This document shows positions 275 to 23,792 of a stretch of DNA of 64,000 nucleotides, in pieces. The translations under genes and the position numbers were made by a program. The notes beneath the pieces were generated by a model that was given only the letters and a program-made list of their open reading frames with translations, did not search any database and was not told the DNA's origin. The DNA lies in assembly GCF_044704955.1 (NCBI RefSeq), contig NC_091995.1, positions 14,136,001-14,200,000 on the forward strand, read 5' to 3'. Source of the DNA: Pristiophorus japonicus. Its lineage: Eukaryota. Position 1 is the stretch's first letter. Every line of letters begins with the position of its first letter.

Positions 275-290
275 GGCTCTGAAAAGAGCC
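275..290 (-). terminator. Orphan histone mRNA 3' stem-loop (with downstream HDE-like element)
   Basis: Minus strand ACACAAAA-GGCTCTTTTCAGAGCC-ACTCA, then TAAGGAGCTA at ~250-259. No histone ORF lies directly upstream. Confidence 0.9.
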
Positions 291-480
291 TTTTGTGTTC
301 AGATGGTCGGCCCCTCCTACCGCCTTAACATTTCAGGAAACGTACTCAATCTGCCTGACATTGGAGTGTGACGCCGCATCAAATAAAACTCCCAGCCAAG
401 GCAAATTGAATCATAATTGCTTCAAATGGCCAAAATACTGGGGGTGCGGGAAATCCAAAACACAAACAGAAAATGCCAGT

Positions 481-730
481 GGAGAACGGCCCATTTAAAA
501 CGGAGATGAGGAGGAATTTCTTCTCTCAGAGGGTCGTAAATCTGTGGAATTCTCTGCCCCAGAGCTGTGAAGGCTGGGTCATTGAATATATTAAAGGCGG
601 AGATAAGACAGATTTTTGAGCGGGAAGTGGAACTGAGGCCATGATCAGATCAGCCAAGATCTTATTGAATGGCAGAGCAGGCTCGAGGGGCCAAATGGCC
701 TACTCCTGCTCCTATTTTATGTTTTTATTA
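481..730 (+). mobile_element. CR1-like LINE 3' fragment
   Basis: gagatgaggaggaatttcttctctcagagggt...ggcctactcctgctcctat, the same 3' end as the long CR1 copies in the window. Confidence 0.85.
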
Positions 731-940
731 AACACTCAGTAGGCACTATTTCTATTAATGATGCATTTACTTCGCTCATGTAGTTTATTTTGATCAGCTG
801 GATGTGGTCATACTATTTGTCTACAATAAAATGTACATTTGGTGAGATTTAAATTGTGCCGCGCATTCGCTCCGCATCATTGCACAGAAAGTGGGATTTT
901 CCAGCGAAGTGATTCAGCTCCTTATAGCGGAAATGTGAGT

Positions 941-956
941 GGCTCTGAAAAGAGCC
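941..956 (-). terminator. Histone 3' stem-loop of H1-like gene A, HDE-like TAAGGAGCTG at ~915-924
   Basis: Perfect GGCTCTTTTCAGAGCC 35 nt after the stop codon at 992. Confidence 0.95.
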
Positions 957-991
957 TTTTGTGTTGAGACGCTCGGTCGCTGCTGGGCCGT

Positions 992-1600
992 CTACCTCCT
1001 CTTCGGGGCCCGTCGCTTCCGCCCCCCAGTCCGGGAGGATGCGGACCTCTTGGGGGCTTTTCTGGGCTTGGCCGCCGCGCCCTTGCGGGTGTTCTTGGCC
1101 GCCGGCTTCTTGACGCGTTTGTGGGCGGCGGGTTTGGCGGCCGCCGCTCTCTTGCGGGCCGGCTTCTTGGCGGCCCTTTTGCTCTTGGCGCCTCCTGCGG
1201 CCCCGTTCTCTCCTCCCTCGGCCTCCTCTTGTCCCCCGTCCTCCTTCTCCTCCTCTCGGTCCGGGTGCAGCGAGGCCGAGGAGGTGCCGGCGCCGCTCTC
1301 CGCCGGCGAGCCCTTGTTGGCCGTGGTACTGACCGACTGGGAGGGCCGGGCGCCGGCCTTGTCCAGCGGCTCGTAGCCGGAGGCCGAGATGGTCTTCTTC
1401 AGGGAGCCCAGCTTGGGGGCCGCCTGGCGCTCCTTGGTGGCGGCCACCGCCTCCAGGATCTGCTCGGCCACCGCGGCGGCGACGCCTTTCTGCGGCCGGT
1501 AGGCGGCCTTCTTCTTGGCGGCCGGCGCCGGGGGGAGGGCGGCGGCCTCATGAGGCGCGGCTGTGGGGAGCTCGGATTTGGCGGGCGCGATATCAGCCAT
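992..1600 (-). CDS. Divergent linker histone H1-like protein A (202 aa)
   Basis: ATG at 1600 (MADIAPAK). H1 globular helix 1/2 motifs VAEQILEAVAATKERQ and LGSLKKTISASGYE, K/A/P/R-rich tail, no introns, histone stem-loop downstream, TATA-like CTTATAG at ~1663-1669. Confidence 0.85.
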   Translation of the reverse strand: MADIAPAKSELPTAAPHEAAALPPAPAAKKKAAYRPQKGVAAAVAEQILEAVAATKERQAAPKLGSLKKTISASGYEPLDKAGARPSQSVSTTANKGSPAESGAGTSSASLHPDREEEKEDGGQEEAEGGENGAAGGAKSKRAAKKPARKRAAAAKPAAHKRVKKPAAKNTRKGAAAKPRKAPKRSASSRTGGRKRRAPKRR

Positions 1601-1726
1601 TTGGGCAAATACGCGCGGACCGGCTCCGCGCACAAACTGAGAGGGGCCGCGGGGCCCGGCGGCTATAAGGGCGGGAGGCGGACGGAGCAGGGGCAACCTG
1701 CCGCTCGGGGCCCGCCCCCTGTTCAG

Positions 1727-2310
1727 GAAGCCCCGCCCCCTGACCAGGGAGCCCCCGCTCAGGAGCCACACCCCTTGTCTAGGGAGCCCTACCCCCCCCT
1801 CCCCATGTCCAGAGAACACCGCCTTGGAACCCCTCCCCTCTGACCAGGGAGCCACACCCACCGCCTGGGAGCCCCTCCCCTCTGACCAGGGAGCCACACC
1901 CACCGCCTGGGAGCCCCTTCCCTCTGACCAGGGAGCCACACCTACCGCCTGGGAGTCCCTCCCCTCTGTCCAGCGATCCACACCCATCGCCTGGGAGTCC
2001 CTCCCCTCTGACCAGGGAACCACACCCTCCCACAGGGAGCCCCGCACCTCTGACCAGGAAGCCACACCCACCGCCAGGGAGCCCCACCCAGCACCCAGGA
2101 GCCCCGCCACCCTTCCCTTGTCCAGGGAGCCCCGTCCTCCCGACCAGAGAGCTGTGCCCCCTTCTCCAGGGAGCCATCCCCCCCCCCCCGTCTAGGGAGC
2201 CATGTCCACTGCCCGGGAGCCCCGCACCCCCCCTTGTCCAGGGAGCCGTGCCCACCGTCTGGGAGCCTTGCCCTCCTGTCCATGGAGCCACACCCACCGC
2301 CCTGAAGCTC
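1727..2310. repeat. 42-bp GC-rich minisatellite (two ~21-bp GGGAGCC subunits) upstream of H1-like gene A
   Basis: Unit gggagcccctcccctctgaccagggagccacacccaccgcct, about 6 clean copies plus decayed flanking copies. Confidence 0.9.
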
Positions 2311-2319
2311 CGCCCCTCC

Positions 2320-2590
2320 TAAAGATCCCATGGACACTATTTCGAAGAAGAGCAGGTGAGTTATCCCCAGTGTCCTGTTGCCAATATTTATCCCTCAATC
2401 AACATAACAAAAAAAATCAGATGATCTGGTCATTATCGCATTGCTGTTTGTGGCAGCTTGCTGTGCGCAAATTGGCTGCCACGTTTCCCACATTACAACA
2501 GTGACGACACTCCAGAAAGTACTTTGCTGGCTGTAAAGGGCTTTGAGATGTCCGGTTGGCCGTGAAGGGTGCTATATAAATGCAAGTCTT
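2320..2590 (+). mobile_element. tRNA-derived SINE, 3' part
   Basis: cagatgatctggtcattatc...gtgcgcaaattggctgcc...ctatataaatgcaagtctt, recurring at ~22890-23240, 31150-31420, 32630-32860 and 37430-37850. Confidence 0.75.
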
Positions 2591-2599
2591 TCTTTTCTG

Positions 2600-3690
2600 T
2601 AACAAATGATAGCAACAACAACTTGCCTTTCTGCAGCACGTTTCACCTCCCAAGGCATTGCACAGGAGTGATTATCAAGTAGAATTTGACCCTCATCCAC
2701 ATAGAATGGTACGGCCCAGCAGGAAGGTCATTCGGCCCATTGAGCCAGTGCCAGCTCTCTTGTAAGAACGCTTTGGCTAGTCCCACTCCACGCCCCTTCC
2801 CCCAACGCTGTAATTTCTTTTTTCCCATCAAGTACTTATCCAACTCCCTTTTGAAAGCCACAATTAAGTCTGCCTCCACTATCCTTTCAGGCAGTGCATT
2901 CCAGATCCTAACCACTCACTGCGTAAAACAAGTTTTTGCTCACGTCACCTTTGGTTCTTTTGCCAATCACCTTAAATCTGTGCCCTCTGGTTCCCTTCCA
3001 CCAATGGGAAATTTCTCTCTATCTACTCTGTCCCGGCCCGTCATGATTTTGAACACCTCTATCAAATCTCCTCTCAACCTACTCTGCTCTAAGGAGAACA
3101 ACCCCAGCTTCTCCAGTCTATCCACATAACTGAAGTCCCTCATCCTGGAAACATTGTTGTAAATCTTTTCTGCACCTTCTCTAATGCTTTCACATCCTTC
3201 CTAAAGTGTGGTGGCCTGAATTGGACACAATACTCCAGTTGAGGCCAATCCAGTGTTTTATAAAGCTTATAAGGAAATAGTAGGGCAGGTGACCAAAAGT
3301 CTGGTCAAAGAGGTAGGTTTTAAGGAACGTCTTAAAGGAGGAAAGAGAGGTAGAGAGGCAGAGAGTTTTTGGGAGGGAATTCCAAAGTTTAGGGCTTTGG
3401 CAGGTGAAGGCATGACCACCAGTGGTTGAACGATAATAATCAGGGATACTCAAGAGGGCAGAATTTGAGGAGTGCAGATATCTCGCCGGGGGTGGGCGTC
3501 GTTTGGTGGTACTGTAGGGCTGGAGGAGATTACAGAGATAAGTCGGGGCGAGATCATGGAGGGATTTGAAAACAAGGATGAGAATTTTAAAATCGGGACA
3601 TTGCTTAACCAGGAGCCAATGTAGGTCAGTGAGCACAGGGATGTTGGATGAACGGAACTTGGTGCAAGTTAGGACACGGGCAGCCGAGTT
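2600..3690 (-). mobile_element. L2-like LINE 3' end with nested CR1 fragment (~2700-3265)
   Basis: ORF 3190-3636 reads LHWLLVKQCPDFKILILVFKSLH...LWNSLP...FKTFLKTYLF, an L2 ORF2 C-terminus. Confidence 0.8.
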
Positions 3691-3869
3691 TTACGTGACT
3701 GCAATGGAACTCAATATCAGGCACATGGGGCAGCTTTCTCGACCTACATGTTTTCATTCAAATGATGCACTTTTAAATGCCATGTAATGATTGGTGCAAT
3801 AATACAATTAGCAAATTGAAATCAGGACAGTTGATGGGAGACAATATCAAGTGACAAGTGAATACAAAG

Positions 3870-4384
3870 TGTTAGAGTGGATTTTCGGACATAGCAAAGC
3901 ATGATGGGATAAGCCAACTATCTGCTTTTCCATTGAATGAATTTTGTACCAAGAAACCTATCTGCTATCCGCTGACATGAACTCTGCAGCAACAAGTGAC
4001 TCATGGCCAGGTATAGGCCACTGTTTCATAGAGAGCTTTGCAAACAAGCAGAATAACTAACCACAAAGGAAGATAAAGAGGAAGGGTGCCCCAAACACGT
4101 GCCATGCTATCAGGTTTCACTAGGACTAAAAAAGTTGTGCAACAATATGATTGGGAGAATGTAATTTTATGCGTTGCCATATGGATTGATTGGTTGTATG
4201 TAAATGAATTTAAATGATTGTATTCCGCCCTCTGTAAACTGCTTATAAGCCCACGGCACCAGGCACTCGGGGAGAAGGTGCTTCGCACGTCGCGGGATCT
4301 CAAACTCTTCTCCCAGAGCTCTGTTAGCAATAAAGTTGTCTCTCTTACTTTACCAGAGTCTATGTGAATTTATTTTCACTAACA
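3870..4384 (+). mobile_element. Solo LTR (515 bp)
   Basis: TGTTAG...CTAACA termini, 5-bp TSD CAAAG (3865-3869 and 4385-4389), TATA-like ttataa at ~4243 and AATAAA at ~4329. Confidence 0.85.
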
Positions 4385-6239
4385 CAAAGCTACTAGTTCC
4401 AGATTCACAGAAAGGAAATAATATCTGGTTTGGAAGGATATGCTATTTTCAAACTTCAATGCATCAAGGATGAACCCAAATCAGATCTATTTCTTGGATG
4501 GAAAACTCTCAATTTTATTTTAGTTCTAGTTTAATGTGTTGTGAAATTATTAATAATAACCATAATTTGGATCAGAACATTCCTACAACAGTGAAATGCC
4601 TTAGTGATACTGAAATACGACATTTCTCCTCATCACAAGTATTCACAATGAGCTCTTTGAATTTATGTGTAAACTAGCTGATATCCGTGCCATTACTCAT
4701 CGCGAGGCAGGAGGAATGTTTGTATATTGTAGAGGTAACATCGAGGCACTGATGTACAGTGATCGAATGAATCAAGGTGAAGCAGTTGGAGTTAGATTAC
4801 TGCTATTTTGCACTGCTTGGAAGGGATAATGGAGCTTCATGGCACTGGTAGCTTTGGTAGCACATGGTGTGTCTTGGGCTTTAGCACATCTGGTTTGGGG
4901 GTCCTGGGGATTGATAGTGGGGCTGCTGGAATCGTTCAGTTTGGGAATACTTCACTATGAAATTACTGTTGGAGGAGGAGCCTGTGGTTCAGTGAAATTG
5001 TGGAAAGGGGAGACTGAGATTTGGCAGAATTAATGGGTATAATGTAGGGTTTGCCTCAGGGGTGGATTCCAGCTGTCTGTCATCAGTGAGGGGAGGAGGA
5101 AGGGTGAAGTGGGGTTGAGGGTGGGGTGGTGGTATTCCAGGTCTGCGATGTTGATTTGAAACTTCATAAGCGATCTCTGCAGACAATAAATTAATGTTTT
5201 ATGAATTGGTCCTGGAAGTGCACCTACAAATCTGTCTTCCTCAGCATCTCTCTCTCTTTGCCTCTCCCTCTCTCTCTGTTTATATCCCTGCCCCTCTCCA
5301 TGTCGTATAAGTGTCAGTAATTAGAATATGTTTTTTTTTAATCAGCACAGGTGATAATAAAAAATAATTAGAGGATTTGCTTGTTTTTGAAATGCAATTT
5401 ATGGGGTTATGAGATTATGAGGAGCGGGCAGGGAAGTGGAGCTGAACCCAAGATCAGATCAGCCATGATCTTATTAAATGACAGAGCAGGCTCGAGGGGC
5501 CAAATGGTCGATTCCTGCTCCTATTTCTTATGTTCTTATGTAATTCTGTTTTTAAACTCAAATTAGGATGAGGATGGGCTCTCTTTTAGTTTAATGTTCT
5601 GCCTGCCTTTGAACACCAACTAAAGCTGCAAAACATGTGCCATTAGTTTAGTTTGACATGCTGTCTGTCTCTCTATATCTTTCTTTTTCTATCTTTCTCT
5701 CTCACCAACATGCACACACATGCTTTTAAATTACTATAAATTATATGCAAATAAAGCTTTTGAAACATTTCCTCCAGATTTTCTTCAAATCGTTTTGTAA
5801 AGCAACTGAATTGATTGTGTTGGAGATTGTGAGGGAAGTGATCTTTCATTTGGCTAACTTAAATACTATTGGTGAATTGTGAAAAAAATATCTACCCACT
5901 ACACATCCTCAGACTGCAGGATTTCTCTTTGGCTGTCAGTCACCAATCTGAATTAAAATATTGATTTCAGGCTGATTCAGGAGGAGCTGAGACTTTCAAC
6001 TGCATACTTTAAAGAAGGTAAAAAAAAAAAATCAGTGGATAAATCTAACCTTGCTGTTGTGAAATGTTATTTTTTTTACATTTTGTTCAAAACCTTAATT
6101 TGGATGCGAGAAGCATCTGATGGATTTTTGTTTTCAAAAAGTCGGGGTGGATGGAGTTAAGATGTAAATCATCCCTGATCTAATCGAATGGAGGAACAGG
6201 GCTGAGGTGCTGAACGGTCTCCTCCTGTTCCCTATGTTG

Positions 6240-7670
6240 GTGGAAGGCAGGAGAGATTAAATGACAAAAGCTCTGGCTGTACAAAGCAAAAGCAAACGGT
6301 AATGAGACAAGTAAAGAAACAAACGATAAGTCTAGAAGCGGTGTAAATGGGAATAGCAGAATGATCAACACTGCTATCTAAAAAAAATAGGGGCAGAGGT
6401 TATGGTCTGAAATTGTTGAACTCGATGTTGAGTCCAGAAGGCTGTAAAGTGCCTAAACGAAAGGTGAGGTGCTGTTCCTCGAGTTTGCGTTGAGCTTCAT
6501 TGGAACAGTGGAGGAGTCCGAGGACGGAGAGGTCAGAGTGGGACTGGAACGGAGAATTCATCATCATCATCATCACAGGCGGTCCCGCGAACGAGGATGA
6601 CTTGCTTCCACGAGTTCACAGGTGTTTCGATGAAGGACCCAATGTTCCAGTCCTGAACTCCAGTTGAGGGGGTGGAAGATGCCTGTGTGTGAATTTTTTT
6701 AACATGTGGTGACCGTTGCACACCAGCCACCACACGGGCTTGACGGAGCTCGGCCTTTATCCAATGACAAGGATTAACCAGGACGACTGGAGACCTGCTC
6801 TGCTGCACGGACCTAGTGCGCGCACACATATCGCGGTGTGGGCTGGCCCGTGCTGCCCCTGGGACCCCGCATCTTCTGGGCCCTGTACCCTCATCTGTCG
6901 CACCTCCGCCACGATCTCTCACCGCTCCTCTGCCACAAACACTCATCGCTCATCCACCCCACGCTGCTGTACCTGGGCCCTGCCGTTGCTTCTGCCCCAG
7001 CCTTCTGCCTCTGTGTAAAGAAATTTCCCCTCAAACTCCCTCTCAACCTCCCCCCAATCACTTAAAATCTATGGCCCCTGGTTGTTCACCTCTCTGCCGA
7101 GGGAAATAGATCCTTCCTCTCCACTCTATCCAGGCCCCTCATAATTTTATACACCTCAATAAGGTCACCCCTCAACCTCCTCTGTTCCAAAGAAAACAAA
7201 CCCAGCCTATCCAATCTTTCACCTTGGTTCCACATTCCTTAATACTCTTGCCGAACAAAAATCTACCAATCTCATTTTTGAAGTTTTCAATTGACCCCAT
7301 GGAAACGGAGAATTAAAGTGACAGGCGACCAGAAGCTCAGGGTCACACATACGGACGGAACAGAGGTGTTCCGCAAAATGGTCACCCCCCATCTGTATTT
7401 GGTCTCCCCAATGTAGAGGAGGCCACATCGTGAGCAGCGAATACAGTGTACTAAGTTGCAAAAAGTACAAATGAATCACTGTTTCACCTTGTTAGGAGTG
7501 TACGGGGACTTGGACAGTGGGAAGGGAGGAGGTAAAAGGGCTGGTGTGGCATCTCTTGCGATAGCACAAGAAGGTGCTGTGAGAAAAGAAAAGGGGTGGT
7601 GGTGCTGGGCGACGATCGAATGAGTGGACCAAGGTGTCGCGGAGGAAGCGGAGCGGTCCCTTCGGAGACG
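6240..7670 (-). mobile_element. Penelope-like element remnants, interrupted by other repeats
   Basis: 7330-7450 encodes a frameshifted GIY-YIG-type segment (resembling CGLLYIGET, then DHFAEHLCSV...VACHFNSP). Confidence 0.6.
6560..7000 (-). mobile_element. RTE-related short retroelement with (TGA)n tail
   Basis: Tail catcatcatcat at 6560-6573. Near-identical inverted copy at 8474-8905. Confidence 0.7.
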
Positions 7671-8473
7671 GTTAACGGATTAGATCAGCATTAACCTCCT
7701 TTTGAGATGGTCAATTTTGGAAAAAGAAGAAAAGTCCTGGATCCCACACAGCAGCATGTGCTGGAGAAAAGGGGACGGTAGAGGAGGGCGAAAGGCAGAG
7801 TGTGGAATGATGCGAGAAGAGCGCAGCAGCTGATTGGTGGATGCGGGAGTTGATGGCCTCATCAGGGGGGGGATTGTTTTTAGATTCGTTCCTGAGATGT
7901 GGGCGTCACTGGCAAGGCCGGCATTTATTGCCTGTCCCTAATTGCCCCTTGAGAAGGTGGTGGTGAGCCACCTTCTTGAACCCTGTGGGCTGAAGGGTCT
8001 CCCACAGGGCTGTTAGGGAGGGAGTTCCAGGATGGTGACCCAGCAACGATGAAGGAACGGTGATATATTTCCCTGACAGATTGGTGTGTGACTGGGAGTG
8101 GAACATGGAGGTGGTGGTGTTCCCTTGTGCTTGCTGCCCTGGCAATTCAACCAGGGGCACAACCAGTAGAACCTGCAAACTAACCAAAAACGTTTAAGAA
8201 AACCAAAATAAATAAAATCAAAATTGTCTTTCTGGTTGCGATGATGCACTCCAGTCCCTCCAGCGGAAGGCCTCGAGCATACCGGTAGAAATTGTGTGCT
8301 CTATCTCCATCGTAGCCCCCCCGACCTACAAGAGACCAGCTCCGTAGGTCGGGCTATAAACGAGGTGGAGTGTACCATTTCAACCTCCAGCGCGAGCTGC
8401 TCCAAGTGTGCGATGATTTTGAGATGGGCGACTGGATGACATCATCAAAACCCTAGTCACCGTTTTGGAGCAT

Positions 8474-8905
8474 GTGCAGGAACATCGGCAGGGCCCAGCT
8501 ACAGAGGAGTGGGACGGTCGGGTTAATGAGCGGCGAGTGTTTGTGGCGAGATGCGGTGAATGATTATGGTGGAGGAGCAGTGAGGGATCGTGGAGGAGGT
8601 GCAACAGATGAGGTTACGGGGCCCAGAAGAGCCGAGGGCCCAGGGGCGATGTGTGTATGCGCTAGGTCCATGCAGCAGAGCAGGTCTCCAGTCGTCCTGG
8701 TTAATCCTTGCCACTGGACCAAGACCTAGCCCTGTCCAGCCTGTGTGGTGGCTGGTGTGCAATGGTCACCACACGTTAAAAAAATTCACGTATAGGCATC
8801 TTCCACCCCTTCAATTGGAGTTCAGGACTGAAACATCGGGTCCCTCGTCAAAACACCTGTGAACTCGTGGAAGCAAGACATCCTCGTTCGAGGGTCTGCC
8901 TATGA
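8474..8905 (+). mobile_element. RTE-related short retroelement, second copy
   Basis: Reverse complement of 6560-7000. Ends gtggaagcaag...gagggtctgcctatgat, like the RTE 3' ends in the window. Confidence 0.7.
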
Positions 8906-9075
8906 TCTCGTGGGACGCCGGGCGCGAATGTAGCCACGGAAGAGATGCAGGCAGTCGGGCCGGAGGAGCCCCTCGACCACCCGCTGCATGGACCGGTTCA
9001 TGACCACCTTGGCCAGGCCCAGGAGCAGTCCTAAGAGGAGGCCCTCCGACCTGCCCCCACCCCCGCACTGGGTCA

Positions 9076-12025: not shown

Positions 12026-12341
12026 GCTGCACCTCGTCAGTGCTTCAATGCCGGGGATATTAGCCTGAGTGAGGACACCGAGGTTAGTGCGCCTGTCCTC
12101 CCAAGGGATTTGTAGGACCTTACGTAGACATCGTTGGTGATTATATGGTCCATGCTTTTGATCCATACAGAAGGCCCTGTAGACCATGAGTTTGGTGGTA
12201 CCCGCACTGGGTACCCAAAGATCAGGAGCTTGGGTCTGAAGTACAGCCAGAAATCGAGCAGCAACCTCTCCAAATAATGCAAGAGGGGCTGCAATCTCAC
12301 ACACCCCATAAAAACGTGGAACACCGCGCTCCCGCCACCCC

Positions 12342-12880
12342 CGTTGCTTCTAGCGCGTCGGGCTTGTGCCTTTAAATGGGAGCGCGGGAGACAGCTGGTC
12401 TCGCAGCTGATTGGCGGAGGCGGGAGGTGAAACCATGTGGGTAGCTTCTAGCGCGTCGGGCTCGTGGCTTGGTGGCGGCTTGCCCCTCCAGCTGATTGGC
12501 GGAGGCGGGAGGTGATACCATGTGGGTTGCTTCTAGCGCGTCGGGCTTGTGGCTTTGCGGCTGCTGGTCTCTCCAGCTGATTGGAGGTGGCAGGGAGGTG
12601 ATGACCACGTGGCCCCAACCCACGGTTGCTTCGAGCGCGTAGGGCTTGTGCCTTGGGCGGCGGCTTGTCCATCCAGCTGATTGGCGGAGGCGGGGAGATG
12701 ATGACCACGTGTTCACCTCCCTTCCCTTCCCACGGTTGCTTCTAGCGCGTCGTTCTCGTGGCTTTGCGGCGGCTGGTCTCTCCAGCTGATTGGCGGAGGC
12801 GGTGAGGTGATGACCATGTGGCCCTAGCCCACGGTTGCTTCTAGCGCGTCGGGCTTGCGCCTAGAAATAGGAGCGCGGGC
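12342..12880 (+). promoter_or_regulatory. Tandemly amplified CCAAT/GC-box promoter units upstream of H1-like gene B
   Basis: About 6 units of 85-110 bp (gttgcttctagcgcgtcggg...cagctgattggcggaggcggg) containing 5 inverted CCAAT boxes. TATA-like TTTAAAT at 12371 and TAGAAATA at 12862, each followed by GGAGCGCGGG. Confidence 0.75.
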
Positions 12881-12967
12881 AACGGCCGGCCCCGTTAGGC
12901 TGCGAAGGGCGGCGCCGAGGGAGGGGGGGCGGTGGGGTAGTACCGCTTGCACTTGCCGCTGCCCGAA

Positions 12968-13630
12968 ATGGCGAGACACGCTGCCAGCACCTGCCGCACG
13001 TCGGCGGCTGTCGTCGTCGCCCCTCTGCAGCGTAAAAGGCGCAAAAAGAAGAGGAATCGGCCGCGCCGGCCGTGCCAGCGACCGCGGCGCAAGCGAGTGC
13101 GGCGCATCAACCAGCTGATCCTGCAGGCGCTGTCGGCCCGCAAGCAGAGCGGCGGCCTGTCGCTGGCCTCGCTGCGGGAGGCGCTGCTGGCCAACGGCTA
13201 CGACGTGGAGAAGAACAAGACGTGCCTGCGGATGGCCGTGCGGGGGCTGGTGCGCAACGGCTCGCTGGTGAAGACCAAAAGGCGGGGCACCGCCACCGAC
13301 TACCTGCGGCTCAGCACGAAACAGGAGCAGCAGAAGGCGAAGAGGAAGATGCAGCAGAAGTGCAAGACTACCGCCGCCGCCACGCCGGTGTCCAGACCCC
13401 GGACCCGGGTCAAGGCCAAGCAGTCCAACAAGAAGAAATGCCGGATCAGGACCCCGCCCCCCAAGAAGCGGACCGAGTCCAGGATCCCGGCCCCCAGGAA
13501 GCGGACTGAGACCAGGATCCCGGCCCCCAGGAAGCGGACTGAGACCAGGAAGCGGACTGCGGTCAAAGTCACCACCAGGAAAACCAAAACTAAACCGAAA
13601 TTGACTAGGAAATCAAATTATTATAATTAA
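12968..13630 (+). CDS. Arg/Cys-rich divergent histone H1-like (protamine-like) protein B (220 aa)
   Basis: ATG at 12968 (gaaATGg). Winged helix INQLILQALSARKQSGGLSLASLREALLANGYDVEKNKTCLRMAVRGLVRNGSLVKT, basic tails, stem-loop 45 nt after the stop. Confidence 0.9.
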   Translation: MARHAASTCRTSAAVVVAPLQRKRRKKKRNRPRRPCQRPRRKRVRRINQLILQALSARKQSGGLSLASLREALLANGYDVEKNKTCLRMAVRGLVRNGSLVKTKRRGTATDYLRLSTKQEQQKAKRKMQQKCKTTAAATPVSRPRTRVKAKQSNKKKCRIRTPPPKKRTESRIPAPRKRTETRIPAPRKRTETRKRTAVKVTTRKTKTKPKLTRKSNYYN

Positions 13631-13675
13631 CGGGAGGCGGGAAAGAAGCAACAGCTTCAAACTCCAAACACAAAA

Positions 13676-13691
13676 GGCTCTTTTCAGAGCC
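13676..13691 (+). terminator. Histone 3' stem-loop of gene B, HDE-like AAAAAGGGCTG at ~13712-13722
   Basis: CACAAAA-GGCTCTTTTCAGAGCC-ACAA. Confidence 0.95.
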
Positions 13692-16062
13692 ACAATTTGT
13701 CTCTGCAAAAGAAAAAGGGCTGAAATTACCTGTACTAGATCAAAGCAAAATAACCGCGGAGGCTGGAATCTGAAATGAAAACAGAAAATGCTGGAATTCT
13801 CAGCGGGCCAGGCAGCATCTGTAGAGAAAAACACACCCCAGAGTTAACGCTTCAGGTCGACGACCCTTCGTCAGGACCCACATTACCAATTCACCAGAAG
13901 CTGAAATTCCCAATTTAGTTCGGGAATTCGTGCCCGTGCCAGTCCTTTTTTTGTGTGGAAAATTGATCCAATTGAGTCCCACACTTTCTCCCCTGGCACT
14001 CCCGCTCATGTCCCTGCAAGTTATCTTTTAGCCTGCTGAAAGAATAAGGGGAAGTTTTTATATTTCACTTAGTTTATTTCTGGAGGGCGACACACTCCCT
14101 GAATAGTACACGCTGGGTGGATATTGGCAGAGAAAGATCCGAAGGCTGAGATTTTTTAGGACAACAACCGGATCGGCCGCAATAATTGTCCAATCTTGTG
14201 TATTTCTGTGTAGGAAATAATTGGCTTGACTTATAACTGCGATTACCAAATCCGCCACTTCATATTTTCTGCTACAAATTGCGAGATGGCAGCAGTGCTC
14301 TAGCGTTCCTGTATCATTTGCAAGTGACTAGCGTGATTTACTTTCACTTTAGTGTTTCATCAAAGCTGTGCCATTGAATCCAATTACTAGCCGTTCGTTC
14401 TTGTCTGATTTTACCGATTTGAAGCGTTTTGGGACTTTTCTACATTCAAGGCGCTGTATAATTGCGAGTTGTCGATGTTGGGTTTCATTTTCCCCCGCAT
14501 AGGATGGGAGTAAGATGCATGTTCCAGTCCGTAATGGTCCACAGCCACTCAGGTTCTTAATGCATCTGTGGATTTGAGGCGAGCTGTTTCTCATGAGAAG
14601 TAGTGGTGGGTGGGCTAAATATGGTACCCCCTCTCCCAGGGAAGGGAAAGACCATCAAAATAACAAAGAGCGGTCTTGGCCCTAAACAAAAAAGTTCAGA
14701 TGTCTATTGGGACTTTCCCCTATAGGGTGGAAGGAAGAGAGGTGGAGTGGGACTAAATGGACAACTTTCAAAAACCCTACGCGTTTCCACAGTCTCCGAT
14801 AGTCCCGATCGCTGCTCTTGGAATTAGACCCCTCCGTTTGCGCTTCTACCGACACCAGTGAAGCTTCTGGAGATACGTGTGTAGGACCTCAGTAGCTGGA
14901 TCTCAGAAACATCCCTTCCTCAACGAGGACCAGCGCTGAGAAGTTGCTGCTGTTCATTGGCAAGACTGCTGTGGGTTCCTTCGACAGTGTAAGTGTATGT
15001 CAGTAAAGACATCCCCATCCTCACATAGAGCTCCGTATTCAGCCTTGGTTTGTGGTCCATAGTGTTGGTGCCTACTTTCAGGAGGTGTCGCCCACAGAGG
15101 CTTCTGATGTCGGTATGTTTTAAAGGTGATTAGGAAATGGCTCCCTGGTCGTCTTTTTGTGGATCCACTCTGCAACCAATTATTTCTGAAGCCTCTTTGG
15201 TGGTGTGGACCTTGAGTTGTCCCGAGTTTCTTACATAGAAACATAGAAAGTAGGTGCAGGAGTAGGCCATTCGGCCCTTCGATTCTGCACCACCATTCAA
15301 TAAGATCATGGCTGATCATTCACCTCAGTACCTCTTTCCTGCTTTCTCTCCATACCCCTTGATCCCTTTAGCCGTAAGAGCCACATCTACTTGGCCACTT
15401 TCCACTAGAGACAGGCCTTTCCCTGCTTTTCAAAGTGGGAAGTTTCTGGCTCGAAGATTAGACACCCTCGTCCCTTCCTTACAGCAGCATCTTGCTAGTA
15501 TGGCACCCAAACCAGAATTCTTTACCATTTTTGTCTTAAAAGCGACTACGCGTCCATCGCCTCCTCCAGAAGGTATCTGAGAGCTTTGAAGCGGACTGGG
15601 AGGGGAGAAAAAATATATATTTGCCATTATACTGGGGCTGTTTCTGAACAGATATCGCAGGGATCCGTCAAGTCGGCCTTTTGATGCCGGTGATGGCAGG
15701 CTGGACAAATCTCAATGTTTCTGTTCCTGAAATCCTACGATTGAGCACTTTCTCATAATCTCCCCATGGTCTCTAATTTTGAATCTTTGTGGGATTGCTT
15801 CTGCGTCTGCAGAGAAGTAACCCTGTTCAATTGTGCAAATATTAACACGTCAATATCAATGTTCATTATAAATCAGAGCCAATTTGCGCCTCTGCGAAGC
15901 GTGTCACAAAACGTAGTGCTGTATTGTGTATTTTCATGGGCAGTCCCTCGGGATAACTTTTAGTGTGTATTATATTCTACATTGTGTAGATATTGGGCAT
16001 TATATTCTACACATATTGGCGGTGTAGATTGGCTCAAGCTCGGATTTTTGCTTGCATTTGGT

Positions 16063-16078
16063 GGCTCTGAAAAGAGCC
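16063..16078 (-). terminator. Histone 3' stem-loop of gene C
   Basis: Minus strand AAC-GGCTCTTTTCAGAGCC-ACCAA, with weak HDE-like CCGAGCTTG at ~16035-16043. Confidence 0.95.
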
Positions 16079-16145
16079 GTTGAATTTATTTTAAAGCTCG
16101 ACAGTCTGCGCCTGTCCCATTTAAAGCAAATTTCCCCCCTTCTTT

Positions 16146-16925
16146 CTAGCGCCGCTTGGCGCCGATTCTGCGCCGCCGTCCCAGCTGCCGAGCCTTGCCG
16201 CCGCCGCCTCTGGCGGGCTTGTCTTTGCGGCGGCCCTTGGCGGCTGCCCCTTTGCGCTCGGCTCTGGGCTTGCGCCGAATCTGCGCCGCCCGGCTGGGCT
16301 TGGGCAAAGTGGCGGGCGGGCGGCCGCGCATGACCTGGGGGCAGCGGGAGGCGGCCGGGGTGGATTTGCCGGCGGCCAAGTGCTTCCTGATGAACGCCAT
16401 CGCCTCCGCCACCGCGTCTTCCTTGGGCGTTGTTACCGCCGCCGCCGGGCCGTACAGGAGGCTGCGGGAGCGGTTGAACCTGAAGGAGCCCGAGGCGCCG
16501 GTGCCGGCCGTCTGCACCAGCGAGCCCTTGCTCACCAGGTACCGCACGGTGTGGTTGACGCGGCTGTTGTTGCGCCTCACGTCGTAGCCCTTGGTGGACA
16601 GCGCCTTCTTGAGGGCGGCCAGCGAGATGCCGCGGCGCTCCTTGTTGGCGGCCGCCACCTGCAGGATGCGCTGGGTGACGGTCGGAGCCGCCGCCGCCGT
16701 GGCCGCCGCCGCCGCCTTCTTCTTGCGCCGCGGAGGGCTGCGCTTCTGCCGGCGTTGCGGCGGCCGCTGCGTCCGCCCCCTCCTCGTCCGCTTCTTCTTC
16801 TTCTTCTTGCTGCTGTCGCTGCTGCTCCTGGTGGTGGTGGCCAGGACCACTTTCTCCGCCGCGCCCGAATTCCCTGCCTCCTCCTCCTCCGCCGCCGCTG
16901 CCTTCTGGTGGTTGTCGTCACCCAT
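16146..16925 (-). CDS. Arg-rich histone H1-like protein C (259 aa)
   Basis: ATG at 16925 (MGDDNHQ). Well-conserved globular domain [70 protein letters not shown], followed by a stem-loop. Confidence 0.92.
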
Positions 16926-17065
16926 GCTTGGGGGCTCTATGGGGGGGGGTGGGGGGGGGAGTGGGAAGCAGATCTTTCCTCTCTCTTTCTCTCGCCCTGT
17001 CCCACGCCTCCGCACCAACACTTGGCTGGAACCAACAAGCGCCAGCCAGCCGCAAGCGGCCGCTC

Positions 17066-17083
17066 TTTATAGACAGGGGGCGG
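17066..17083 (-). promoter_or_regulatory. TATA box and adjacent GC box of gene C
   Basis: Minus strand TATAAA at 17066-17071, GGGGCGG at 17077-17083. Confidence 0.7.
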
Positions 17084-17561
17084 ACCTGGTGCAGCGCTCC
17101 AGCCCCCTGTGAATGGACGAAAAGTTGCTGGAAACGTTCAAAGTGGGAGGGGGGGGGCGGGGAGAGAAAGAGGGGGACAAGTTTAAATCCAATACCTAGG
17201 ATTGGGAATCAGGATCCGGTTAACCCATCTCCAACAACACGCATTATGAAGGAGCAAGGGGGAAACTTTGTGGTGTAGATAGATGAATGGCACTTGGTCT
17301 GAGTGCAATCTTTTGTATCTTCTCGTTCAAAATGACACACGCTGATCAGATTGCAGCTATCAGTAAAAGAGTAAACAGGTCGGGGCTTAGTCCGAAGACC
17401 TAAGACCTTTCAAAAGTCTTTAAAAGGTGACAAGTATCCAAAACCAGCAAGCTCAAGAAGTATGAGGACACATTGGAATGGCTGGGTTTGTTCTCATTGG
17501 AACACAGAAGGTTGAGAGGAGACCTCATTGAGGTGTACAAAATATTGAGGGGCCTGGACAT

Positions 17562-20078
17562 AGTATCAAACAAGAAATTAGGGATGCGTGCAATAAAGGT
17601 ACAGCAGTTATCATGGGTGACTTCAATCTACATATTGATTGGGCTAACCAAACTGGTAGCAATGCGGTGGAGGAGGATTTCCTGGAGTGTATTAGGGATG
17701 GTTTTCGAGACCAATATGTCGAGGAACCAACTAGAGAGCTGGCAATGTTAGACTGGGTGATGTACAATGAGAAAGGACTAATTAGCAATCTTGTTGTGCG
17801 TGGCCCCTTGGGAAATAGTGACCATAATGTGGTAGAATTCTTTATTAAGGTGGAGAGTGACAAAGTTAATTCAGAAACTAAGGTCTTGAACTTAAAGAAA
17901 GGTAACTTCGATGGTTTGAGGCGTGGATTGGCTAGAATAGACTGGCCAATTAAAGGGTTGACGGTGGATAGGCAATGACAAACATTTAAAGATCACATAG
18001 ATGAACTTCAGCAATTGTACATCCCTGTCTGGAGTAAAAATAAAATGGGGAAGGTGGCTCAACCGTGGCTAACAAGGGAAATTAAGGATAGTGTTAAATC
18101 CAAGGAAGAGGCATATAAATTTGCTAGAAAAAGCAGCAAACTTGAGGACTGGGAGAAATTTAGAATTCAGCAGAGGAGGTCAAAGGGTTTAATTAAGAGG
18201 GGGAAAATAGAGTACGAGAGGAAGCTTGCAGGGAACATAAAAAATGACTGCAAAAGTTTCTATAGATATGTGAAGAGAAAAAGATTAGTGAAGACAAACG
18301 TAGTCCGTTGCGGTCGGATTCAGGTGAATTTATAATGGGGAACAAAGAAATGGCAGACCAATTGACAAGTACTTTGGTTCTGTCTTCATGAAGGAAGACA
18401 CAAATAACCTTCCGGATGTACTAGGGGACTGAGGGTCTAGTGAGAACGAGGAACTGAAAGATATTCTTATTAGGCGGAAAATTGTGTTGGGGAAATTGAT
18501 GGGATTGAAGGCCGATAAATCCCCGGGGCCTGATAGTCTGCATCCCAGAGTACTTAAGGAAGTGGCCCTAGAAATAGTGATCATTGTCCAACAGTCTATG
18601 GACTCTGGATCAGTTCCTATGGACTGGAGGGTATCTAATGTAACACCACTTTTTAAAAAGAGAGGGAGAGAGAAAATGGGTAATTATAGACCGGTTAGCC
18701 TGACATCAGTAGTGGGGAAAATGTTGGAATCAATTATTAAGGATGAAATAGCAGCATATTTGGAAAGCAGTGACAGGATCGGTCCAAGTCAGCATGGATT
18801 TATGAAAGGGAAATCATGCTTGACAAATCTTCTGGAATTTTTTGAGGATGTAACAAGTAGAGTGGACAAGGGAGAACCAGTGGATGTGGTGTATTTGGAC
18901 TTTCAAAAGGCTTTTGACAAGGTCCCACATAAGAGATTGGTGTGCAAAATCAAAGCACATGGTATTGGGGGTAATGTACTGATGTGGATAGAGAACTGGT
19001 TGGCAGACAGGAAGCAAAGAGTCAGGATAACCGGGTCCTTTTCAGAATGGCAGGCAGTGACTAGTGGAGTGCCGCAGGGGTCAGTGCTGGGACCCCAGCT
19101 ATTTACTATATATATTAATGATTTAGATGAAGGAATTGAGTGTAGTATCTCCAAGTTTGCAGATGACACTAAACTGGGTGGCGGTGTGAGCTGTGAGGAG
19201 GATGCTAAGAGGCTGCAGGGTGACTTGAACAGGTTAGGTGAGTGGGCAAATGCATGGCAGATGAAGTATAATGTGGATAAATATGAGGTTATCCACTTTG
19301 GGGGCAAAAACATGAAGGCAGAATATTATCTGAATGGTGGCAGATTAGGAAAAGGGGAGGTGCAATGAGACCTGGGTGTTATGGTAAATCAGTCATTGAA
19401 AGTTGGCATGCAGGTACAGCAGGTGGTGAAGAAGGCAAATGGTATGTTGGCCTTCATAGCTAGGGTATTTGAGTATAGGAGCAGGGAGGTCTTACTGCAG
19501 TTGTACAGGGCCTTGGTGAGGCCTCACCTGGAATATTGTGTTCAATTTTGGTCTCCTAATCTGAGGAAGTATGTTCGTGCTATTGAGGGAGTGCAGCGAA
19601 GGTTCACCAGACTGATTCCCGGGATGGCAGGACTGGCATATGAGGAGAGATTGGATCAACTGGGCCTTTTTACACTGGAGTTTAGAAGGATGAGAGGGGA
19701 TCTCATAGAAACATAAGATTCTGACGGGATTGGACAGGTTAAATGCGCGAAGAATGTTCCCGATGTTGGGGAAGTCAAGAACCAGGGAACACAGTCTTAG
19801 GATAAGGGGTAGGCCATTTAGGACTGAGATGAGGAGAAACTTCTTCACTCAGAGAGTTGTTAACCTGTGGAATTCCCTGCCGCAGAGAGTTGTTGATGCC
19901 AGTGCATTGGATATATTCAAGAGGGAGTTAGATACGGCTAAAAGGATCAAGGGGTATCGAGAGAAAGCAGGAAAGGGGTACTGAGGGAATGATCAGCCAT
20001 GATCTTATTGAATGGTGGTGCAGGCTCGAAGGGATGAATGACCTACTCCTGCACCTATTTTCAATGTTTCTATGTTTC
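17562..20078 (+). mobile_element. CR1 LINE, 5'-truncated, disrupted ORF2
   Basis: GDFNLHIDW, RT motifs [19 protein letters not shown] and KFADD. 3' tail tttctatgtttcta. Confidence 0.95.
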
Positions 20079-21214
20079 TAGTGAATAGTAAGGGTCTATT
20101 TGCATTGGTGGAGGGGTCTATTATGAGGGAGCATAGTTTTAAGGCTGGTGGAAGGTTTAGAGGGGATTTGAGGGGAGTGGGGCTTCTTTACACAGAGGGT
20201 TGTGGGGATCTGGAACTTGTTGCCTGGAAGAGTGGTGGATGCAGAAACCCTCACCACTTTTAAGAGATGGTTGGATGGTTAAAGTGCCGTAACCTGCAGG
20301 GTTACGGACCCAGAGCTGGTAATTGGGATTAGACTGGATGACCTTTTGTTGGACGGAGCAGATATGATGGTAAGTACTGCAGGGAATAGAATATGGCCAG
20401 TGTGATCTCCTGGACTAGTTTCGATCGCCTGGATGGTTCAGAGAGGAATTTTCCCAGATTTTTTCTTCCTAAATTGGCCTGGGTTTTTATGTGGTTTTTG
20501 CCTCTCCCAGGAGATCACATGGCTCCAGTTGGGCTGGAGTGTAGCTGTTTTCTGTATAAGGGGTGTCGCAGTTGTGTGGGGTGGACTGGTTGGGCTGGGT
20601 GCTCTTTGCCTTTCCGCCATTGTTCATAGGTTTAGGGCTGCTGATCAAGGGCCGTGCGGCTCTTTGTCGGCCGGCGAGGACATGATGGGCCGGAATGGCC
20701 TCCTACTGCGCTGTAAATTTCTATGTTTCTAAGTACATTTAAGAATTAATTCTGCACTTTCAGTGGAGTTTGCCACTTTATAAGGAGTCCAATTTTTCAT
20801 CCCAAAGCTTCAACATCTCAGCCTACGCTCAATTGAAAGAAAGACTTGCATTTATTTGTCGCCTTTCACGACCTCAGGATGTCCCAAGGCACTTTACAGT
20901 CAATGAAGCAATTTCTGAAGTGTAACCACTGTTGTACTGTGGGAAACGCGGCAACCAATTTGTGCACTGCAACCTCCCAGAAACTACAAATGTGATAATG
21001 TACAGATAATCTGTTTTTGTTATGTTGATTGAGGAATAAATATTTATCAGGGCAGTTGGTAGCACTCTAGCCTCTAAATCAAGTTGAGCGTTCAAGCCGC
21101 ACTCCAGACTTGAGCACATAAGAACATAAGAACATAAGAAATAGGAGCAGGGGTAGGCCATACGGCCCCTCGAGCCTGTTCCGCCATTTAATACGATCAT
21201 GGCTGATCCGATTA

Positions 21215-22390
21215 TGGTGGAGGAGGGGGAGGGAAGGGGGAGAGGAGGGGGAGGGAAGGGGAGAGGAGGGGTGGGAGGGAGGGAGAGGAGGGGAAGGGAA
21301 GGGGAGAGAGGTGGGTGGGAGGGAGGGAGGGAGAAGAGGGGGGGAGAAGGAGGGGGAGGGAGAGGATGGGGAGGGAGAGGAGGTGGGTGGGAGGGGGGAA
21401 GAGGAAGGGGAGAGAGGGGGAGAGGAGGAGGAGGGGGAGGAGGGGGAAGGGAGGGGGAGGGAGGGAGAGAAGGTAGGTGGGAGNNNNNNNNNNNNNNNNN
21501 NNNNNNNNNNNNNNNNNNNNNNNNNNNNNNNNNNNNNNNNNNNNNNNNNNNNNNNNNNNNNNNNNNNNNNNNNNNNNNNNNNNNNNNNNNNNNNNNNNNN
21601 NNNNNNNNNNNNNNNNNNGGGGAAGAAGTGGGGGGAGAAGGAGGGGGAGGGAGAGGATGGGGAGGAGAGGAGGTTGGGGGGAGAGAGGGGGGAGGGAGGA
21701 GGAGGGGGAGGGGAAGGGAGGGGGTGGGAGGGAGAGGAGGGAGGTGGAGGGAGGGGGGGGGGGAACGGGGGAGGGAGAGGAGGTAGGTGGGAGGGGGAAG
21801 AGGAAGGGGAGAGAGGGAGAGAGGGGGAGAGGAGGAGGAGGGGAGAGGAGGAGGGGGAAGGGAGGGGGTGGAGGAGGGGAGGGGGAAGGAGGAGGGGAAG
21901 GGAAGGGGAGAGGAGGGGAAGGGAAAGGAGGGGAAGGGAAGGGGAGAGGAGGTGGGTGGAGGGAGGGAGAAGAGGGGGGAGAAGGAGGGGGAGGGAGAGG
22001 ATGGGGAGGGAGAGAGGGGTGGGTGGGAGAGAGGGGGAGAGGAGGAGGAGGGGGAGGAGGGGGAAGGGAGGAGGAGGGAGGGAGAAGAGGTGGGTAGGAG
22101 GGGGGAGGAGGGTGAATGGATGGGGAGAGGAGTGGGGAAGGGAGGGGGTGGAGGAGGGAGAGGGAAGGGGAGAGGAGGGGGAAGGGAGGCGGTGAGGAGG
22201 AGGGGGAGGGAAGGGGAGAGGAGGTGGGTGGGAGGGGGGGGAGAGGGAGGTGGATGGGAGGGGGGAAGAGGAAGGGGAGAGAGGGAGGAGGAGGAGGGGG
22301 TGGGGGGAGAGGAGGGTGGAGGGAGGGAGGGAGGGCGGAGGGAGGGGGGGAGCGAGGGAGAAAGAGCTGAATGGGAGGGAGTGGGGGGGA
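21215..22390. repeat. Polypurine G/A-rich low-complexity tract containing an assembly gap (N at 21484-21618)
   Basis: Almost only G and A on the + strand. All long Pro-rich and Gly/Glu/Arg-rich ORFs here derive from it. Confidence 0.95.
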
Positions 22391-22504
22391 GGCTGAATGG
22401 GCCCCGCTGCCAACGAAGAAGATGCTGGGCCGCAGCCGATGACACTTCGGGCTGGGCCTGCCCCAGTGAGATGCCGGCCGGGCGGGCCCTGCCACCGCCG
22501 ACAA

Positions 22505-22800
22505 CGCTGACGCCCGCACCGAGAAGCTGGGCCGGCGCCGAGGACCTCAGATGGGGCCAGCCCCCAGGAGATGCCGGGCAGGCCCCGCCGCCGATGAGGG
22601 AAGAGGTGTCAGGCCACATGGTCTGGGATAGGGTCGACGTCCCTTCGGTCAGAGACAGGACGTGCTGGGAGGGCCAGGCGCTACTGCGTACACTGCCGAA
22701 GGTGGCGCAGGGCTGTAACCCCATCCTCAGCAGCTCCTGCCGCACCGCGCCGAGCTGGAAACAGGCTGACAGATATCGGAGAATCACGAGGTAAGTATTC
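22505..22800 (-). pseudogene. Possible degenerate BRWD1/PHIP-family N-terminal fragment
   Basis: YLVILRYLSA..VRQELLRMGLQP..W...H..PD..QLLGAG resembles BRWD1 YFLIARYLSA..LVQELEQYQLLP..W...H..HVAPD..SLLGAG. Comparison is from recall, not a search. Confidence 0.35.
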
Positions 22801-23354
22801 GGCACAATTCCCGTTCAAGCGGGGATCCGAAACTTGAGCCCTTTATGTGGGACCTTGTCAAATGCCTTCTGGAAGTCCAAATACGCCACATAATGCCGAC
22901 TGACTCAAGTGCAGTGCTGAGGGAGCGCTGTCGGAGGTGCCGTCATTCAAATAAGATGCCCCTTCAGATGAACGCAAAGGAGCATATGGCACTCTTTCAA
23001 AGAGCAGGCGAGTTCTCCCCGGTGTCCTGTGACAAAATCTATCCCTCAACCAACATCACTGCAAAACAGATTATCTGGTCATTATCACCTTGCTGTGTGT
23101 GGGAGCTTACTGTGCACAAATTGGCTGCTGCATTTCCCGCATCACAACAGTAACACTTCAAAAAGTACTTCATTGGCTGTGGAGCGCATTGGGACGTCCG
23201 GAGGTTGTAAAAGTGCTGAATCAATGTAAGCTCTTTCTTTTAAATATGTAAAAGCATATATATATATTTAATATATATATATATATATATAAAATATATA
23301 TTGTGTATTTCCAATTATCCAGTTTCTTGTGATTTGCTAAATTATGAAATGAGT

Positions 23355-23790
23355 GGTGGTTTTGGAAAAAAGCCTTTGAATTTGGGTTTAGAAGTTGCGT
23401 TTTTCGCCCCTCTCCTCCTGGGGGATTTCCTCTTGGCTTTGGCGGGACTCCTGACGCCCTTTCACTTCAGTTTCACGGGATTTTTTTCTCGCGGGTTTTC
23501 TTGCTGAGTCGTCTGGCCTTCGCCCTCCACGGGCTGCGGATGGAAACGGTCAGCTCACCGCCTGCTGCATCTCGCTGCGGCTATTTGGGGGGGGGGGGTG
23601 AGGGAGACGGGGTGGTGTCTGCCTCACCCTGCCCGCCCGCTTGGCCGTAAAGGCCTGCCGGAACCTGGGGCGCTGTTGCTGTCCAGGTCATAGCTGAGCC
23701 AGCCGAGCGCGCCTTGCAGACGGGAGCGGGGCAATGCCTGCTTGGCGTGAGCGGCCCAGGGCTGCTCCGACCCAGCCACCTTTCCTATGG
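23355..23790 (-). pseudogene. Histone H1-like pseudogene D
   Basis: RLQGALGWLSYDLDSNSA (cf. LKKALAAGGYDVEKNNSR), tail KGVRSPAKAKRKSPRRRGAK with an upstream in-frame stop and frameshifts, decayed stem-loop GGCTTTTTTCCAAAACC at 23358-23374. 5' end cut by an RTE. Confidence 0.75.
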
Positions 23791-23792
23791 GT

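What the first reader, a model, noticed from the sequence alone, without database searches (positions are those of the whole stretch)
275..23790. H1-only cluster of fast-diverging, Arg-enriched linker-histone genes that keep replication-dependent stem-loops
Seen: three intact intronless H1-like genes, one pseudogene and one orphan stem-loop within 24 kb. No core histone gene occurs in the 64 kb. The proteins differ greatly from each other, and B and C each have about 40 Arg by manual count. Known: somatic H1s are Lys-rich with few Arg. Sperm protamine-like (PL) proteins are thought to derive from H1 by a Lys-to-Arg shift. Variant H1s such as H1.0 are polyadenylated rather than stem-loop processed. 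Inference: a birth-and-death family of germline/spermatid H1-PL intermediates in a cartilaginous fish, still using SLBP/U7 processing.
Basis: partly seen in the sequence, partly recalled or inferred. Interest (0 to 1): 0.8.

Follow-up and report, generated by a model that had tools for sequence, protein, structure and literature searches.

The report
Ancient shark variant-histone cluster in MHC
These are three intact members of an old family of arginine-enriched DNA-packing (histone H1) genes of sharks and rays, lying among ordinary core-histone genes in the immune (MHC) gene region; they likely serve germ cells, probably loosening rather than tightly packing DNA, and one is predicted to have lost the folded DNA-gripping domain.

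Summary
In detail: three intact intronless H1-derived genes (A, B, C; B and C have 40 Arg each), a decayed pseudogene and an orphan stem-loop. 'H1-only' is a window-edge effect. An intact H4 lies 6 kb outside, and the window is the right end of a ~520-kb mixed cluster: 12 intact variant H1s, 12 intact core genes (divergent H2Bs, an H2A.X-like H2A), no Lys-rich H1. It is interleaved with VARS1 and SAPCD, with VWA7 beyond (MHC class III); sawfish shows nearly the same order. The lineages are old: A and C occur in sharks and rays, and sister lineages in a chimaera. Their globular domains derive from replication-dependent H1, not H1.0, and diverge no faster than the shark's Lys-rich H1. C lacks two site-I lysines; A's winged helix is predicted unfolded. 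Net charge is mostly lower than in Lys-rich H1, so 'protamine intermediate' is not supported; an H1t-like germ-line role is likeliest. Expression is untested.

The parts
130..318 (-). Duplicated copy of gene A's 3' flank with the orphan stem-loop (Rfam hit 250-295); no coding sequence upstream
916..961 (-). Stem-loop and downstream element of gene A; predicted pairing with the genome's own U7-like RNA -15.7 kcal/mol, as strong as in Lys-rich H1 genes
992..1600 (-). Gene A, 202 aa: H1-derived; helix 1 conserved, helix 3 and wing degenerate (prolines), acidic patch after the domain; predicted unfolded; same position and strand as a sawfish H1.10-like gene
12404..12820 (+). Upstream array of ~85-109 bp units, five with a reverse CCAAT box, in front of gene B
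12968..13630 (+). Gene B (sub-lineage B1), 220 aa, K32 R40, 5 Cys; predicted winged helix with altered wing; 33-bp x3.2 tail repeat at 13447-13550
13671..13715 (+). Stem-loop of gene B; U7 pairing weak (-10.2, 13% of shuffles as strong)
16039..16083 (-). Stem-loop of gene C; U7 pairing weak (-8.6, 30% of shuffles as strong)
16146..16925 (-). Gene C, 259 aa, K28 R40; globular domain of replication-dependent type lacking the K69 and K85 equivalents; third local copy of lineage C, with a diverged tail that lacks the GRP(R/K) AT-hook-like motif of most orthologues
23331..23780 (-). Frameshifted pseudogene of the A2 sub-lineage with broken stem-loop; its 5' end abuts a LINE-like ORF at 23787-24302 (LINE label recalled)

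Best explanation
The window holds three intact members of an old cartilaginous-fish family of arginine-enriched H1 variants that arose from replication-dependent H1 and sit with variant core histones in a cluster inside the MHC class III region; they likely act as germ-line, H1t-like linker histones that are predicted to grip the nucleosome less firmly than the Lys-rich H1. Shown: sequences, cluster content, gene order, orthologues, tree position, residue changes. Inferred steps: (1) The genes are transcribed and their mRNAs end at the stem-loop by SLBP/U7, well supported for A and weakly for B and C. (2) C-type proteins keep the fold and the linker-DNA site (R42, R94 equivalents) but lack two of three site-I basics, so they would bind the dyad loosely and rely on Arg tails and, in most orthologues, an AT-hook-like motif. 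(3) A-type proteins would be disordered, weakly charged DNA binders. (4) With the divergent H2Bs and the H2A.X-like H2A they would open or mark spermatocyte/spermatid chromatin before true protamines replace histones.
For: Mixed cluster at C19:13.637-14.160 Mb: 12 intact variant H1 ORFs, 12 intact core genes, 4 pseudogenes, no Lys-rich H1 in 764 kb scanned. Lys-rich H1s lie in arrays on C9 and C2056. Cluster H2Bs are 68-79% and H2As 90% identical to array copies, against 92% and 95% between array copies. Orthologues: A in 8 named elasmobranch species, C in 12, B in 2 other sharks; sister lineages in Callorhinchus. Tree of 73 columns: C+D+E+F+Callorhinchus 100/99, B 100/100, none joins H1.0 or H1t. 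C matches GH1/H1.1-H1.4 at E 1e-22 to 2e-17 but H5/H1.0/H1x at about 1e-6 to 2e-5. The K85 equivalent is non-basic in 30 of 30 C/D/E/F/Callorhinchus rows and the K69 equivalent in 28 of 30, against basic in 18 of 18 bony-vertebrate and 5 of 5 shark Lys-rich H1s (site roles from PMC2685081, one passage). AlphaFold2: A has no domain (pLDDT 52, one helix, 13 rows), B folds with 6 rows and matches H1.1-H1.4 structures; the Atlas model of A is also poor (0.44). Sawfish MHC chromosome: nearly the same gene order around vars1. Precedent: H1t has R/(K+R) 0.31; stem-loop sperm H2Bs cluster in Hydractinia (PMC5011920, passages).
Against: No expression data of any kind were obtained. Arg-rich H1 also marks non-germ cells (H5 in erythrocytes; PMC4584325, section 14). 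Promoter motif counts showed nothing germ-line-specific. U7 pairing of B and C is not above shuffles. H1t keeps both site-I basics, so the likeness is functional guesswork, not homology. Paralogue dN/dS is not low: A pairs 0.39-1.21, D pair 1.48, C pairs 0.73-0.80, Lys-rich pairs 0.60-0.68, on few changes and GC3 near 0.87. Window B keeps basic K69/R73/K85 equivalents and has the highest charge, so 'loosening' does not fit it. Low pLDDT from a shallow alignment is not proof of disorder. The Atlas's second feature hit for A is a cluster named 'protamine-like protein' (0.93).
Confidence: 0.5

Rival explanations
1. They are spermatid or sperm protamine-like packers, on the way from H1 to protamine, with B the best candidate.
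For: B has K+R 33%, net charge 0.29 per residue, an RKRRKKKR run and 5 Cys. B's wing is altered, and the wing is said to be dispensable in the fish PL-I (PMC4584325, section 14). Atlas feature hit 'protamine-like protein' for A.
Against: A and C carry less net charge than Lys-rich H1; the longest Arg run is 4 in C and under 3 in A and B. B's Cys are private: 0 in its closest orthologue, 0-1 in 4 of 4 orthologues counted. The tree joins replication-dependent H1, while PL origin is proposed from H1.0/H5 (PMC11607694, passages). No alternative reading frame of the tails is Lys-rich, so no frameshift switch. Sharks have true protamines (recalled). No PL-I or HILS1 sequence was available for the tree.
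Confidence: 0.2
2. They are somatic specialist H1s (erythrocyte, lymphoid or other differentiated cells; an H5-like role reached independently) or oocyte/embryo histones.
For: Arg gain is also the mark of H5 (PMC4584325, section 14). The cluster lies among broadly used and immune genes. CpG o/e of 0.89-0.99 fits broadly open genes.
Against: Stem-loop ends suit dividing or pre-meiotic cells better than terminal ones; the genome has two Lys-rich H1.0-like genes without stem-loops for that role; loss of site-I lysines is the opposite of H5.
Confidence: 0.18
3. It is an old minor replication-dependent cluster, made partly redundant by the large Lys-rich arrays, whose H1s drift under weak selection, with Arg gained through GC-biased substitution.
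For: GC3 0.76-0.92; Arg codons in C are mostly CGN (31 of 40); paralogue dN/dS 0.4-1.5; gene conversion evens out C's domain (dS 0.07-0.18 against 0.67-0.98 in tails); pseudogenes.
Against: Open frames, stem-loops and gene order kept between sharks and rays. Lineage-specific motifs are invariant. H1.0-like genes have GC3 0.85-0.91 with R/(K+R) only 0.15-0.20, and B has array-like GC at codon positions 1-2 (0.53) with high Arg.
Confidence: 0.12

Closest known systems
Mammalian H1t (H1.6), with TH2A/TH2B, in the HIST1 cluster
   Same: Intronless variants inside a clustered histone locus on the MHC chromosome; derived from replication-dependent H1; raised Arg (0.31 in the one H1t row); accompanied by variant H2A/H2B with stem-loops (PMC8015243, PMC5223428, passages).
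   Different: Not orthologous in the tree; six lineages instead of one gene; more Arg; site-I lysines lost in C/D/E/F; located at VARS1 in class III, where reedfish shows no annotated histone gene; testis expression not shown.
Protamine-like PL-I proteins (Mullus PL-I, bivalve PL-I)
   Same: Winged helix with Lys/Arg-mixed tails; altered wing in B.
   Different: PL-I is listed as polyA+ and grouped with replication-independent H1 (PMC4584325); these genes have stem-loops, group with replication-dependent H1, and A and C are weakly charged.
Replication-dependent vertebrate H1 (H1.1-H1.5, chicken GH1) and the shark's own Lys-rich array H1
   Same: Gene form, stem-loop, domain sequence (C 62% to bat H1.1; the shark array H1 58%).
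   Different: R/(K+R) 0.38-0.59 against 0.03-0.16 (one partial row 0.25); 0-1 S/T-P-x-K/R sites against 2-5; no H1 box within 300 nt in A, B, C against 7 of 7 array genes.
Hydractinia sperm H2B.2/5/6 cluster
   Same: Clustered, intronless, stem-loop variants used in male germ cells (PMC5011920, passages).
   Different: H2B not H1, SPKK repeats, a lineage without protamines; here expression is unknown.

Membership tests
Linker histone H1 (PF00538) | Winged-helix domain by profile | tested here: met
   B 33.9 bits, C 59.8 bits, cut-off 22.4; B model matches H1.1-H1.4
Linker histone H1 (PF00538) | Winged-helix domain in gene A | tested here: not met
   No Pfam hit; no folded domain in two predictors; homology by profile only
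Replication-dependent histone genes | Intronless, stem-loop 35-67 nt after the stop, clustered with core genes | tested here: met
Replication-dependent histone genes | Downstream element pairing with U7 | tested here: inconclusive
   A -15.7 (p 0.01); B -10.2 (p 0.13); C -8.6 (p 0.30); array H1s -12.7 to -15.9
Replication-dependent histone genes | S-phase, non-polyadenylated mRNA | not testable with these tools
   no RNA data obtained
H1t (H1.6) | Orthology of the globular domain | tested here: not met
   The single H1t row stays among bony-vertebrate H1s, outside the starred variant clades
H1t (H1.6) | Spermatocyte-specific expression | not testable with these tools
   no RNA data obtained
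Protamine-like PL-I | Basic content above somatic H1 | tested here: not met
   K+R 22% (A), 26% (C), 33% (B) against 27-31% in Lys-rich H1; only B is slightly above
Protamine-like PL-I | Origin from the replication-independent H1.0/H5 line, polyA mRNA | tested here: not met
   Tree and PDB matches favour replication-dependent H1; H1.0 served as proxy, no PL-I row
Protamine-like PL-I | Replaces histones in mature sperm | not testable with these tools
   needs sperm proteomics

The most novel reading that the evidence does not exclude
Cartilaginous fish independently built a complete second, germ-line histone set inside MHC class III: six H1 lineages, several H2B variants and an H2A.X-derived H2A without the SQ-Y tail. 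One lineage (A) is a linker histone that discarded its winged helix yet has been kept in sharks and rays since their split, a natural test of what H1 tails do without the globular domain.
Probability: 0.3. Interest if true: 0.75.

Novelty: new variant of a known kind. Interest (0 to 1): 0.52.

Why it matters
If germ-line, this is a vertebrate testis-histone system that arose independently of H1t/TH2A/TH2B and is far more elaborate, in the lineage closest to the root of jawed vertebrates. It offers a graded natural series (intact Lys-rich H1, site-I-deficient C, wing-altered B, unfolded A) for asking how the globular domain and Arg tails divide the work of chromatin binding. It also adds a histone cluster to the map of the shark MHC that the cited MHC paper does not discuss (0 occurrences of 'histone' in its main text). 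The genes are already annotated by NCBI as 'histone H1-like', and function is untested, which caps the score.

Tried and rejected
Expression: no RNA holder listed for 12400-17400; no reads were laid, so expression is open. Frameshift origin of Arg: rejected, no Lys-rich alternative frame in 12 of 12 variant tails. Germ-line promoter motifs (MYB, X-box half sites, CRE): scattered in variant and array genes alike, no shuffle control, not used. Synteny with the WBP11-linked histone locus: the search rang nowhere, uninformative. Positional orthology to mammalian HIST1: not shown; reedfish has vwa7-vars1-sapcd1 with no annotated histone gene in the table part read. Protein HMM on the pseudogene: no hit. 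Paralogue dN/dS: too few changes and GC-biased, not decisive. Atlas structure search for A: TM under 0.4, meaningless for an unfolded model. Literature: six searches bearing on novelty and one on dogfish sperm proteins listed no paper on these shark H1 variants; listings only were seen, and subscription papers are not held. Two papers asked for were not held. Earlier-findings look-ups by gene A's sequence and by MHC words returned nothing.
Full report
What is in the window. Three intact intronless reading frames are each followed, 35-67 nt after the stop, by a perfect histone stem-loop: A 992-1600(-), B 12968-13630(+), C 16146-16925(-). B and C each have 40 Arg. B and C carry a Pfam linker-histone domain; A does not, but a profile of its family hits GH1 and H1.1-H1.4. 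The orphan stem-loop at 250-295 belongs to a 75%-identical duplicate of A's 3' flank. The pseudogene at ~23331-23780(-) is a decayed copy of the A2 gene (z 7.7 against 100 shuffles).

The 'H1-only' reading fails just outside. The window is G000:C19:14,136,001-14,200,000 of a 5.9-Gb genome; a UniRef record labelled Pristiophorus japonicus matches one of its genes at 100%. I scanned 764 kb (13.536-14.300 Mb) in separate 10-kb pieces plus the window. An intact H4 lies 6 kb left of the window. From 13.637 to 14.160 Mb there are 12 intact variant H1 frames (A x3, A2, B x2, C x3, D x2, E), 2 H1 pseudogenes, 12 intact core genes (4 H2A, 4 H2B, 1 H3, 3 H4) and 2 core genes with stops. No Lys-rich H1 lies there, and no histone gene from 14.16 to 14.30 Mb. 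Lys-rich H1s (K52-73, R7-8 in the 7 measured) sit in large arrays with core genes on C9 and C2056. The cluster's H2Bs are 68-79% identical to an array H2B (array copies 92% to each other). Its H2A best matches H2A.X among single-domain PDB chains but ends without SQ-Y.

Location. A Pfam scan of 148 of 1644 candidate frames found exons of valyl-tRNA synthetase (13.86-13.90 Mb), SAPCD (13.93-14.01 Mb) and one VWA7 exon (14.28 Mb). An upstream GST-like exon points to VARS1 (that domain's link to VARS1 is recalled). The supplement of PMC10751288 (three table parts and two term searches read) lists, on the sawfish MHC chromosome: HSP70s, smx5, H2B, H1, H4, H2B, H3, H2A, H2B, H1, vars1, SAPCD, H4, H2B, one uncharacterised gene, H2A, H2A, H1.10-like(-), H1.11L-like(-). 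That is nearly the order found here, and the 585-nt H1.10-like gene fits the 194-aa A orthologue P0093. White shark has 22 small unnamed genes around vars1, several matching orthologue lengths (identity inferred from length). In reedfish vwa7, vars1 and sapcd1 are adjacent with no annotated histone gene. The paper's main text has no occurrence of 'histone'.

Age and descent. A has relatives in 8 named elasmobranch species, rays included, C in 12, B in Heptranchias and Heterodontus. A profile search added lineages D, E, F and two Callorhinchus proteins. In a 62-row, 73-column tree without A, C+D+E+F+Callorhinchus form a starred clade (100/99) and B another (100/100); none joins H1.0 or H1t. With A included and 18 rows dropped for time, A is one clade (99/97), and the larger grouping falls to 82/89. 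The alignment is short, deep forks are open, and no PL-I, HILS1 or H1T2 row was available. Domain identity to Heptranchias is 81% (A, 54 columns), 84% (B) and 81% (C), against 71-75% for Lys-rich H1; full-length identity is 67, 58 and 45% against 71%. So the tails move and the domains do not. C paralogues show domain dS 0.07-0.18 against 0.67-0.98 in the tails, which suggests gene conversion.

Anatomy and likely working. Numbered as H5 (site I K69, R73, K85; site II R42, R94; PMC2685081, one passage; mapped by spacing), C/D/E/F/Callorhinchus lack a basic K85 in 30 of 30 rows and a basic K69 in 28 of 30, while keeping R42 and R94 in 30 of 30. Weaker dyad binding is inferred. Ten of 12 C orthologues counted carry a GRP(R/K) AT-hook-like motif (label recalled); window C has lost it. 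B folds as a winged helix (pLDDT 77-90 over the domain) and keeps site I. A keeps helix 1 almost invariant but has prolines in helix 3 and the wing; AlphaFold2 gives one helix at pLDDT 52 with 13 rows, and the Atlas model is as poor. Net charge per residue is 0.13 (A), 0.29 (B), 0.20 (C), against 0.21-0.28 for Lys-rich H1. U7-like genes exist; pairing is strong for A and not above shuffles for B and C.

Verdict. The best reading is an H1t-like germ-line variant set that likely loosens or marks chromatin before protamines arrive (0.5). Rivals are sperm PL packers (0.2, mainly B), somatic or oocyte specialists (0.18) and weakly selected drift with GC bias (0.12). Against my reading: there are no expression data, promoters are uninformative, paralogue dN/dS is not low, B does not fit loosening, and the Atlas offers a 'protamine-like' neighbour for A. 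Precedent for stem-loop germ-line variants comes from PMC5223428, PMC8015243 and PMC5011920 (passages); the PL comparison from PMC4584325 (passages and section 14) and PMC11607694 (passages). My searches listed no paper on these genes, but subscription papers are not held. This scan has noted the same family in other cartilaginous fish; those are unchecked notes, not support.

Noticed in passing
L105 / G000:C19:13719692-13720360(-): Gene E's reading frame runs through its own stem-loop; the stop codon occupies positions +3 to +5 after it, at the expected cleavage site.
   Followed up: partly
L044:1122-1508, L048, L054, L118: Four identical H2A proteins with an H2A.X-like body and no SQ-Y tail; two have broken stem-loops and two have no U7 pairing above shuffles.
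   Followed up: partly
L040, L042, L051, L055: Four different H2B variants, 68-79% identical to array H2B; three carry a Cys in the histone fold and altered N-tails.
   Followed up: partly
L007, L015, L087 (C9 and C2056 arrays): The shark's Lys-rich array H1 has a more derived globular domain (branch 0.71; 58% to bat H1.1) than variant C (62%); at least 150 H1 matches and 1062 exact stem-loops genome-wide.
   Followed up: partly
L083-L085 (C19:59.2-63.4 Mb): Lys-rich-type H1 copies with an internal stop whose stem-loop lies about 2.5 kb downstream, probably split by an insertion.
   Followed up: no
L001, L002 (C19:74.39 and 74.49 Mb): Two divergent H1.0-like genes without stem-loops on the same chromosome.
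   Followed up: no
L120-L121 and L073: Retrovirus-like zinc knuckle, RT, RNase H and integrase frames beside the cluster, in pieces; observed only.
   Followed up: no
window 60503-60608(-): Degenerate 5S rRNA copy, 46 bits.
   Followed up: no
window 1817-2089 and 21219-22391: A 42-bp x6.5 minisatellite upstream of A that keeps a long frame open 5' of the true ATG, and a 1.1-kb GA-rich low-complexity tract.
   Followed up: no
L057:1602-1742 (C19:13.7976 Mb): A frameshifted B-type pseudogene between D and A.
   Followed up: partly
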